64,000 nt of DNA, taken from NCBI GenBank assembly GCA_963523045.1, contig CAURBE010000003.1:12528-76527 (forward strand), read 5' to 3'. This document shows positions 47,583 to 58,889 of the stretch, one piece after another. Numbering within the stretch: the stretch's first letter is position 1; every line of letters begins with the position of its first letter. The stretch is from an uncultured Candidatus Saccharibacteria bacterium (GTDB lineage: Bacteria > Patescibacteriota > Saccharimonadia > Saccharimonadales > Saccharimonadaceae). A program made the position numbers and the translations under genes. Below the pieces are notes generated by a model. The model worked only from the letters and a program-made list of their open reading frames with translations. It was not told where the DNA came from and ran no database searches.

Positions 47583-47658
47583 TACTTTAATTTGACAAGA
47601 TGAAATTAAAGTAAAATCGATTTTACTTTAATTTGACAAGATGAAATTAAAGTAAAAT
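47583..47658. repeat. Two 35-bp direct repeats, each an inverted repeat, joined by a 32-bp perfect palindrome
   Basis: tactttaatttgacaagatgaaattaaagtaaaat at 47583-47617 and 47624-47658; palindrome 47603-47634. Confidence 0.93.
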
Positions 47659-57644: not shown

Positions 57645-58889
57645 TTAGATTGCTGTCATTGATAAACTTGGCTGGACTTTCAGGTCGTACGGGTCGGCGG
57701 GCTGGTCGATGTGGGCGCGGAAATAACTGAGCGCGGCGATCATGGCGGCGTTGTCGGTGCAGAGCTGTATAGGTGCGTACTCGATAGTAATGGGCAAGGC
57801 TTGGCGCAGCTGGCGGCGTAATTCTTGGTTGGCGGCGACGCCGCCGGCGATGACGACGGAGGCAGGCTGGAAATTGTCATAGGCTTTCTTAGTCTTATCG
57901 ACTAGGGTTTTAACGGCGGTGTATTGGAAACTGGCTGCCATATTATGCCTTAGTTCGTCGGTTACTAGGGTAGGAAGCTCGTGCGACGGAAAAGTGAAGT
58001 CTTTACCTACTTCGCGCTGCACGGTTCTCAGAACGGCTGTCTTGAGGCCAGAGAAGGAAAAATCGTACTCGCCGGCGAGCTTGGCGATAGGTAGGTGAAA
58101 GGCGCGGGGATCACCTAGTTCGGCTGCTTTGGCGATGGCCGGGCCGCCAGGGTAGGGCAGGCCAATGATTTTAGCGACCTTGTCGAACGCCTCGCCGACG
58201 GCGTCGTCTTGAGTTTGGCCGATGAGTTGGTAGTCGCCGTGATTCTGGAAAAGGACGAGTTGCGAATGTCCGCCAGAGACGATGAGGGCGAGGAGGGGGA
58301 AGGCGGGTTGATGGTGCGGTAAAGACAGTGCCAAATTGCTGGAATTAACAACGGCTTCCGCACGCCGAGACTCTTTCTCGTCAGATTCTTTGGCGACTGC
58401 GGGACTCGCTTTGCTCAAACAGTCCTCGTCTCGCAAGGAATCTGACAAGCTCGCCTCTCGGGTTTGTGCAGATGTTGTTAATTCCAGCAATTTGTCATGT
58501 TTTGAGCCTCTCTTTCTCTGTTCTGTAATGAAATTAGCATACACATGCGCCTCGACATGGTGTATTTTGTAAAGCGGCTTATTGTGAATGATGGCGAGGG
58601 TGCGGGCGGCGAGGGTGCCGATGAGCAGCGAGCCGATCAGGCCGGGCGCGTAGGTGACGGCGATGGCGTCGATGTCGTCCCAGGTGCAATCAGCGTCAGA
58701 CAGGGCTTTTTTGATGACCGGGTTGACAACTTCCAGGTGGCTGCGGGCGGCGATTTCCGGGATGACGCCGCCGTATTCGGCATGGATGTCAATTTGGGAA
58801 TTGACCACATTAGAAAGCAAGCGTTCGCCGTCTTCAACGATCGCCGCCGCTGTTTCGTCGCAGCTGGACTCGATTCCCAAAATCCTCAT
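57645..58889 (-). CDS. tsaD: tRNA N6-adenosine threonylcarbamoyltransferase with internal insertion
   Basis: GIESSCDET, HHVEAH, VSGGH, DDAVGEAFDK, FSFSGLKT, CTDNAAMI. Confidence 0.97.
   Translation of the reverse strand: MRILGIESSCDETAAAIVEDGERLLSNVVNSQIDIHAEYGGVIPEIAARSHLEVVNPVIKKALSDADCTWDDIDAIAVTYAPGLIGSLLIGTLAARTLAIIHNKPLYKIHHVEAHVYANFITEQRKRGSKHDKLLELTTSAQTREASLSDSLRDEDCLSKASPAVAKESDEKESRRAEAVVNSSNLALSLPHHQPAFPLLALIVSGGHSQLVLFQNHGDYQLIGQTQDDAVGEAFDKVAKIIGLPYPGGPAIAKAAELGDPRAFHLPIAKLAGEYDFSFSGLKTAVLRTVQREVGKDFTFPSHELPTLVTDELRHNMAASFQYTAVKTLVDKTKKAYDNFQPASVVIAGGVAANQELRRQLRQALPITIEYAPIQLCTDNAAMIAALSYFRAHIDQPADPYDLKVQPSLSMTAI
58329..58497. mobile_element. Palindromic (RPE/MITE-like) element inserted in frame in tsaD
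   Basis: Perfect 21-bp inverted repeats at 58332-58352 and 58474-58494 plus nested internal stems; mobility is inferred, not shown. Confidence 0.7.

What the first reader, a model, noticed from the sequence alone, without database searches (positions are those of the whole stretch)
58329..58497. Coding palindromic element inserted in frame inside tsaD, readable in both orientations
Seen: TsaD carries an extra ~55 aa between HHVEAH and PAFPLLALIVSGGH. That DNA is a long hairpin: perfect 21-bp terminal inverted repeats caaattgctggaattaacaac (58332-58352) / gttgttaattccagcaatttg (58474-58494), with nested stems cgaga/tctcg, gtcagattctttg/caaggaatctgac and ggact/agtcc. The 162 nt from 58333 to 58494 are stop-free on both strands, each reading KLLELTT...VVNSSNL, so either orientation keeps a host frame open. 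Known: Rickettsia palindromic elements are ~150-bp hairpins inserted in frame into housekeeping genes, and tsaD is normally essential. Inference: this is a similar selfish, peptide-adding repeat family. I am not aware of one described in Saccharibacteria. No second copy, transposase or clear target-site duplication is visible in this window.
Basis: partly seen in the sequence, partly recalled or inferred. Interest (0 to 1): 0.9.

Follow-up and report, generated by a model that had tools for sequence, protein, structure and literature searches.

The report
Mobile hairpin translated inside tsaD
A hairpin-forming piece of repeated DNA sits in frame inside the tRNA-modifying gene tsaD of a Saccharibacteria genome; relatives of it occupy loops of other housekeeping genes and lie between genes in many bacteria, and what moves it is still unknown.

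Summary
Confirmed. tsaD carries 58 extra codons against empty alleles of the same genus, encoded by a rod-shaped hairpin (z = -9.3). A 127-nt core ('family A') recurs without gaps, in frame, in topA (same orientation) and in lepA and ileS (opposite), with a relative in mnmA; 27 of 131 genus genomes match. The 21-bp 'terminal repeats' are not element ends: each locus has its own paired outer stem, and one allele shows arm-to-arm copying. The same tsaD loop holds a second element (family B) or chimeras in other strains, scrambled against the flank tree. Relatives are intergenic in 23 of 120 Saccharimonadales genera sampled, and the 32-nt tip motif recurs in other phyla. All 8 copies in this genome lie on the same replication strand. 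No mobilising enzyme was found (Y1/HUH p = 0.49; reverse transcriptase p = 0.03, uncorrected). Best reading: a non-autonomous, structure-defined mobile hairpin tolerated as a disordered loop. It works like Rickettsia palindromic elements but is not shown to be related to them. This scan has already noted similar inserts in other Saccharibacteria; my paper searches found no description.

The parts
57645..58889 (-). tsaD host gene, 414 aa, intact frame; invariant H111, H115, D379 kept
58329..58497 (-). Inserted hairpin with its locus-specific outer stem; net +174 nt against empty alleles, exact junctions blurred (about 58320-58510)
58350..58476 (-). Family A core, 127 nt, shared without gaps with copies in topA, lepA, ileS; 'element-plus' strand is the tsaD coding strand
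58332..58352 (.). Outer arm (perfect 21-bp match to the other arm); sequence differs at every other locus
58474..58494 (.). Other outer arm
58456..58475 (-). Conserved 5' block of the core (genus-level subfamily)
58429..58455 (-). Variable stem, 5' side; differs between loci with compensatory changes
58397..58428 (-). Apical 32-nt motif (GAGGACTGT..TGA, small hairpin, GAGTTCCGCAG type); the part shared across Saccharimonadales and other phyla
58371..58396 (-). Variable stem, 3' side; site of the arm-to-arm copied tract in genome G065
58351..58370 (-). Conserved 3' block of the core

Best explanation
The insert is a trimmed copy of a non-autonomous mobile hairpin whose identity lies in its fold and a short apical motif, not in terminal repeats. 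Steps: (1) shown: free copies are intergenic rods, often followed by a TTTTG..ACTTT-hairpin tail, up to about 19 per genome in other Saccharimonadales. (2) Inferred: they are copied in trans through a single-stranded intermediate by an enzyme not identified here, preferentially in one orientation relative to the replication fork. (3) Shown: in this genus one subfamily that is stop-free in one frame per strand sits in length-tolerant loops of housekeeping genes; its orientation in the gene follows the replication strand, so it is sense in tsaD and topA and antisense in lepA, ileS and mnmA. (4) Shown once, inferred in general: template switching between arms makes and repairs the locus-specific perfect stems. 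(5) Shown by mosaics and tree: the filled loop then behaves as an exchangeable cassette, replaced or recombined with other hairpin modules. (6) Predicted: it is translated as a disordered loop that leaves the TsaD fold intact.
For: Empty/filled alleles, filled ones forming one clade (98/94). Ungapped core in four genes with 28 of 54 pairs compensatory, 94.8% of cells paired against 36-46% for slid partners (ten sequences but only four loci). 30 of 30 fetched genus matches lie in frame in tsaD, topA, lepA or mnmA, ileS. Intergenic relatives in 27 of 150 order genomes. Element-plus strand folds better in 27 of 28 copies as RNA and 26 of 28 as DNA whatever the host strand. Polarity 8 of 8 in this genome, 5 of 5 gene-orientation classes for A and 8 of 11 for B across the genus. 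Arm-copied tract in G065. Insert types need 10 changes on the flank tree, least possible 3. AlphaFold with 37 sequences: mean pLDDT 88.9, only residues 135-177 below 50.
Against: No mobiliser: PF01797 absent from G000, G051, G155, G203, G094 and not associated with the element (10 of 27 against 35 of 123, p = 0.49); none of 150 of 187 neighbouring ORFs hit a transposase, integrase or RT Pfam. No pair of near-identical A copies at two loci, so no recent jump is caught. Polarity is modest once kin are collapsed (A p = 0.06, B p = 0.23, pooled p = 0.02), three B classes break it, and it could not be tested in G051, where skew is near zero. Core diversity is far below flank diversity (0.021 against 0.083), which a purely neutral passenger does not predict without repair or recent spread. 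Translation was not observed.
Confidence: 0.62

Rival explanations
1. The element spreads through an RNA intermediate: a structured transcript is copied by a reverse transcriptase (group II intron-like, DGR-like or retron-like) and integrated at forks.
For: RT (PF00078) in 10 of 27 element-positive against 20 of 123 negative genomes, p = 0.03 uncorrected. G-U-type pairs outnumber A-C on the element strand among allele differences, 51 against 31, p = 0.035. Many intergenic copies lie just past gene ends.
Against: One of two tests, kin not independent, RT types differ between genomes, G000 and G155 have no RT match, no RT among 150 neighbours, and only two loose one-half motif checks near four RT loci were made, with no hit.
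Confidence: 0.15
2. The hairpin has been domesticated: a DNA or RNA structure bound by a host factor (replication, repair or translation pausing), kept by purifying selection, with the peptide as a by-product.
For: Core diversity is lower than flank diversity in 9 of 9 allele sets, 7 with p < 0.05; paired positions vary less than unpaired in tsaD (7 of 118 against 11 of 59, p = 0.015); the tip motif is kept across phyla; strand polarity is what a fork-related site would show.
Against: Most genus genomes lack family A (27 of 131 have it); the tsaD loop is empty in 22 of 42 alleles and holds unrelated modules in 9; arm repair and allele exchange can lower diversity without function.
Confidence: 0.12
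3. A classical MITE moved by a DDE transposase that binds the 21-bp terminal repeats.
For: Perfect 21-bp arms at this locus; an IS256-variant transposase lies beside copies in G054 and G155.
Against: Arms differ completely between loci; no further copy of the 21-mer in this genome at up to 4 mismatches; longest direct repeat across the flanks is 5 bp and lies inside the arm; the IS256 has its own terminal repeats and 8-bp duplication inside the element's tail, so it targets the element.
Confidence: 0.04
4. An intron-like or self-cleaving RNA removed from the message, or a ribosome-bypass element.
For: Strong rod fold with conserved bulges and covarying stems.
Against: Every genic A copy examined keeps the host frame open (33 of 33); both strands are the sense strand in different housekeeping genes; no Rfam match on the inserts in 13 and 20 loci; a 356-nt contig with template-switch adaptor ends spans the insert without a joint (adaptor identity recalled, library type not on record, so a weak hint).
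Confidence: 0.05

Closest known systems
Rickettsia palindromic elements (RPE; Ogata et al. 2000, 2002, seen only as summarised in passages of PMC10969869, PMC2229807, PMC1166351)
   Same: 100-150-nt hairpin repeats, intergenic and in frame in conserved genes, several families per genome, no known mobiliser or target duplication, host is a reduced-genome symbiont.
   Different: RPEs are described with terminal inverted repeats of the element; here outer stems are locus-specific and the apex is conserved. Loops act as cassettes exchanged between modules, orientation follows the replication strand, and the tip motif crosses phyla. Sequence relationship to RPE not tested.
REPINs and RAYT transposases (PMC3116915, passages)
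   Same: Non-autonomous ssDNA hairpins; fixed length and pairing kept by compensatory change; copies nest in and beside each other; inverted doublets; targeted by other IS.
   Different: REPINs are extragenic with conserved REP ends and lie beside a RAYT; here conservation is apical, copies are genic in this genus, and PF01797 is missing from the two highest-copy genomes.
Bacterial MITEs with ORF fusions (ERIC/RU-1, YPAL/RU-2, RU-3, Correia; PMC2229807, PMC3184786, passages)
   Same: Size, stable stem-loop, in-frame fusions.
   Different: No shared TIR, TA ends or target duplication found.
Betaproteobacterial repeat element (BRE; PMC3110155, passages of main text)
   Same: Intergenic and sometimes intragenic repeat in Betaproteobacteria, where the family A tip and tail also occur.
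   Different: BRE is ~90 bp, tandem, 69% GC and not oriented with the fork. Its sequence list is in a supplement that could not be read, so identity with the family A tail or tip is open.
Template-switch correction of quasi-palindromes (PMC5941160, passages)
   Same: Explains perfect, locus-specific arms and conservation of inverted repeats.
   Different: Does not explain dispersal of the core or conservation of unpaired motif bases.

Membership tests
Rickettsia palindromic element (works like) | Dispersed 100-150-nt palindrome with stable stem-loop | tested here: met
   127-nt core, z = -9.3; five genes in the genus
Rickettsia palindromic element (works like) | In-frame insertion in unrelated conserved genes, with empty orthologues | tested here: met
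   tsaD, topA, lepA, ileS filled and empty alleles; empty mnmA not fetched
Rickettsia palindromic element (works like) | Insert in a surface loop compatible with the fold | tested here: met
   Model pLDDT > 90 for 341 residues, insert < 50; 75 residues here against 6 in PDB 6nak_B
Rickettsia palindromic element (works like) | Peptide present in an active protein | not testable with these tools
   No proteomics; no run on record as RNA holds the stretch
Rickettsia palindromic element (member) | Sequence homology to an RPE family | not tested
   RPE sequences not fetched; PMC186582 not held
MITE | Terminal inverted repeats shared by all copies | tested here: not met
   Outer stems unrelated between tsaD, topA, lepA, ileS
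MITE | Target-site duplication | tested here: not met
   Longest direct repeat 5 bp, inside the arm; junctions are old and blurred
MITE | Autonomous IS with matching ends | tested here: not met
   None among 150 of 187 neighbours; the one adjacent IS256 has different ends. Whole-genome screens for all IS families were not run.
REPIN | Inverted doublet hairpin with conserved length and compensatory change | tested here: met
REPIN | Cognate RAYT (PF01797) in the genome, flanked by the repeat | tested here: not met
   no motif beside two G169 Y1 genes
REPIN | GTAG/CGTC-headed REP ends | not tested
   No such conserved end is visible in alignment A1; no formal search
Curated RNA family / self-splicing intron | Rfam match | tested here: not met
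   No match on the elements at E <= 1 (13 loci) or E <= 2 (20 loci)
BRE | Sequence identity to the BRE list | not testable with these tools
   Supplement 1 of PMC3110155 not readable

The most novel reading that the evidence does not exclude
The tsaD insert is the coding offshoot of an undescribed cross-phylum class of mobile single-stranded hairpins that have no terminal repeats, are recognised by a conserved apical motif and a tail hairpin, integrate with fixed polarity at replication forks through an enzyme not yet known, and in Saccharibacteria turn loops of essential proteins into swappable peptide cassettes.
Probability: 0.3. Interest if true: 0.85.

Novelty: new variant of a known kind. 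Interest (0 to 1): 0.62.

Why it matters
How Rickettsia-type coding palindromes move has been open since 2000. Here there are filled, empty, chimeric and opposite-orientation alleles across more than a hundred genomes of one genus, intergenic high-copy relatives in sister families, and a short motif to search for a cognate enzyme. Saccharibacteria are reported to be genetically tractable (recalled, no call), so mobility, translation and fitness cost can be tested. It also shows 0.7-Mb genomes adding 40-100 aa loops to TsaD, TopA, IleS, LeuS, Der and MnmA, which bears on how reduced genomes gain new peptide sequence and on annotation and phylogenomics of these marker genes.

Tried and rejected
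Terminal-repeat search in the own genome: only the two arms at up to 4 mismatches. Rfam: nothing on the inserts. Viral contigs: B core 0 hits; A core 1 hit that is host topA DNA at a contig end; looser A pattern 4 hits, none with an evident mobiliser. Y1/HUH transposase: no association. Tyrosine recombinases: present in 5 of 5 genomes and in 14 of 14 controls, uninformative. Recurrent neighbour among 79 metagenome loci: none beyond common housekeeping families and antisense frames over the repeat itself (output partly cut). Idea that the outer arms are an inverted copy of host target DNA: one tsaD arm resembles the empty loop at protein level, but DNA alignments to five empty alleles did not fix the junction and topA arms have no counterpart in empty alleles; not supported. 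Polarity test in G051: GC skew near zero, inconclusive. RNA runs: no RNA holder listed. The joint 58310-58528 in run X2 continues into the sequence of the other tsaD allele type, so it is not splicing. Single-sequence AlphaFold: pLDDT 36.5, discarded. Paper searches (listings and abstract starts seen) found no description in Saccharibacteria or of the motif; subscription papers and most supplements are outside this library. Genome G410 is unpublished: its match was viewed but left out of alignments, models and all claims except the raw tally (5 of 301, 4 without it).

Full report
Observation. The ORF at window 58889..57645 (minus strand, 414 aa) is TsaD: it matches solved TsaD chains over residues 1-122 and 198-410, with 75 residues where PDB 6nak_B has 6. 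The nearest named records are Saccharibacteria. Window 58320-58505 folds into one rod, -84.6 kcal/mol, z = -9.34, 0 of 200 shuffles as stable. The 21-bp arms are exact complements and one frame per strand is open. In 9,365 windows folded across the genome, the structured windows inside long ORFs that stood out were in der, rnhB, mnmA, lepA and topA, which led to the family below.

Filled and empty alleles. A search of 61 relatives and a DNA search of 131 genus genomes gave 42 distinct tsaD alleles: 22 empty, 11 with this insert (type A), 7 with a different element followed by the right half of A, and 2 with that element plus a third module. The net gain here is 58 codons. The loop is length-tolerant: 19-36 residues in most other bacteria. 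On a tree of the flanks all 20 filled alleles form one clade (98/94), but insert types are scrambled within it: 10 changes where 3 is the minimum, and strongly supported branches alone force 3 for type A. So the loop was filled once and its content has since been exchanged. Contigs of runs X2 and X4 span the insert, which with 11 alleles excludes an assembly artefact.

Family A. A 127-nt core aligns without gaps between tsaD, topA, lepA and ileS. It is sense in tsaD and topA and antisense in lepA and ileS; empty alleles exist for each. A covariance model found it in 27 of 131 genus genomes, adding mnmA, including this genome (C1:9592-9755). All 30 loci returned lie in frame in tsaD, topA, lepA or mnmA; of the other 7 places, 3 were read earlier (lepA, ileS, mnmA) and 4 were not fetched. 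Three blocks are conserved; the stems between them differ between loci but stay paired: 28 of 54 pairs have changes on both sides and 94.8% of cells pair, against 36-46% when partners are slid (ten sequences from four loci, structure derived from them). The outer stem is different at every locus, so the 21-bp arms are not element ends. In G065 a multi-base tract is replaced by the complement of the opposite arm while other loci share the ancestral tract, the signature of template switching described in PMC5941160 (passages read).

Family B and mosaics. This genome also has five copies of a three-way-junction element, in der, topA, rnhB, leuS and after relA. A DNA query matched 75 of 131 genus genomes, with further copies in an ABC-F ATPase and a dusB-like gene. 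topA, rnhB and the ABC-F gene each carry B in both orientations at the same loop, and topA carries A, B or nothing. The second tsaD element is a B variant whose inner hairpin is nearly identical to an intergenic copy in another genus. B relatives outside the genus were found in 4 of 149 order genomes; all 8 loci read were intergenic or at gene ends.

Wider family. The A model hit 27 of 150 order genomes in 23 of 120 genera (only 19 candidates scored per genome). Of 28 loci read, 26 were outside ORFs and 2 under short antisense-like frames. G051 has 21 pattern matches, about 19 of them this element (control 1); none of 16 read lay in an ORF of 200 aa or more. These copies are long rods with the apical motif, usually followed by a TTTTG..ACTTT-hairpin tail that the tsaD copy lacks, and some form inverted doublets. 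Part of the tip motif with the tail occurs in Ralstonia, Ilyobacter and Aureibacter records, the tail in 139 plasmid-collection records, 134 of them Ralstonia, and the exact tip pattern in at least 121 metagenome stretches of 30-69% GC. Two of 120 held loci have it in frame in long ORFs, resembling a P-type ATPase and recJ (names from motifs I recognise). Only 18 of 131 such relatives are open in both frames used in genes, whereas 20 of 20 tsaD, topA, lepA and ileS copies are, and 0 of 13 mnmA copies. In-frame survival is therefore a filter acting on one subfamily.

Strand behaviour. The element-plus strand folds better in 27 of 28 copies as RNA and 26 of 28 as DNA, whether sense or antisense to the host gene; the two DNA exceptions are the tsaD copies. 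Among allele differences G-T pairs outnumber A-C on that strand 51 to 31 (p = 0.035; antisense copies alone 22 to 13, p = 0.18). An earlier scan note (e1-5192323) suggested fixed chromosomal orientation. I tested it: 8 of 8 copies in this genome have the plus strand on the C-rich strand; across the genus 5 of 5 gene-orientation classes for A and 8 of 11 for B (p = 0.06, 0.23, pooled 0.02). The three exceptions are the loops that hold both orientations. It could not be tested in G051. This is suggestive of fork-linked integration, as known for IS200/IS605 elements (recalled), not proof.

Constraint. Nucleotide diversity in the tsaD core is 0.021 against 0.083 in flanks, with a sharp border; all 9 allele sets point the same way, 7 with p < 0.05 (kin are not independent). 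Paired positions vary less than unpaired (p = 0.015). Arm repair and cassette exchange can produce this, but selection on the structure is not excluded.

Mobiliser. PF01797 is absent from this genome and from the two highest-copy genomes and shows no association (10 of 27 against 35 of 123, p = 0.49). RT shows a weak one (10 of 27 against 20 of 123, p = 0.03 uncorrected) with mixed RT types and no match in this genome. Of 187 neighbouring ORFs, 150 were scanned and none hit a transposase, integrase or RT family; one without a Pfam hit is an IS256-variant transposase by Atlas features, but it has its own ends and an 8-bp duplication inside the element's tail, so it is a parasite of the element.

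Protein. With a 37-sequence alignment AlphaFold gives mean pLDDT 88.9, 341 residues above 90, and only 135-177 below 50: an extruded loop after the helix bearing the two invariant histidines. A 356-nt contig of run X4 crosses the insert and ends in what I recognise as template-switch adaptor sequence; the library type is not on record, so this is only a weak hint that the insert stays in RNA. Rfam has no match on the elements.

Comparison and verdict. It works like Rickettsia palindromic elements as summarised in PMC10969869, PMC2229807 and PMC1166351 (passages read; the primary papers were not available), and shares fold-over-sequence conservation with REPINs (PMC3116915, passages), but fails the MITE tests and the RAYT test. 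Homology to RPE was not tested and BRE (PMC3110155, passages) could not be compared because its supplement was unreadable. Nine paper searches found no description in Saccharibacteria; the scan's own notes report similar inserts in at least 9 other genomes (8 shown), which I treat as leads. Verdict: real, a new variant of a known kind; dispersal, in-frame survival and cassette exchange are shown, the mobilising chemistry is inferred.

Noticed in passing
G000:C2:21349-21484, C2:33434-33569, C7:24959-25094, C9:9880-10015, C11:14496-14631 (L150-L152, L155, L156): Five copies of a second element (family B, three-way junction with conserved junction bases) in der, topA, rnhB, leuS and after relA.
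   Followed up: yes
L154:1220-1460 (G000:C1:95720-95960): lepA holds a third, multi-hairpin module joined to the end of a family A copy; 82-aa loop against 5 in empty alleles. lepA here is only about 350 aa.
   Followed up: partly
L295 (G054:C87) and L300 (G155:C50): IS256-variant transposase inserted with an 8-bp duplication into the tail hairpin of an A element; the same IS end lies beside a copy in a second genome.
   Followed up: partly
L170 (G102:C2): der N-terminus fused to topA C-terminus through a family B copy: misassembly or a rearrangement mediated by the repeat.
   Followed up: no
L157 (G000:C2:41234-42876): Rolling-circle-type Rep ORF (HUH-like motif, recognised by eye) with a duplicated 5' part and a twice-repeated structured stretch; no sequence link to families A or B seen.
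   Followed up: no
window about 46264 and 47583-47654: Cumulative GC-skew minimum lies about 17-18 kb downstream of dnaA (G000:C3:40130-41488), near a 72-nt AT-rich repeat/palindrome; possible origin unlinked from dnaA.
   Followed up: no
G000:C2:22800-23260, C7:32540-32930, C6:11160-11560, C11:11400-11880: Intergenic stretches of stacked hairpins around small hydrophobic ORFs, some sharing a leader and end hairpin; resemble type I toxin-antitoxin-like cassettes.
   Followed up: no
L422 and L470 (metagenome contigs): The family A tip in frame, antisense, inside long ORFs resembling a P-type ATPase (40% GC) and recJ (30% GC), outside this genus.
   Followed up: partly
L208 (IMGVR_UViG_3300045988_156214, last 800 bases): A viral contig ends in Saccharibacteria topA DNA with the A insert: prophage junction or chimeric contig.
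   Followed up: no
L007:1827-2037: Another Saccharimonadales tsaD has a different 29-aa hairpin-coded insert at the same loop.
   Followed up: partly
L303:2004-2112: SAM-I riboswitch upstream of a metK-like gene in a Saccharimonadales genome.
   Followed up: no
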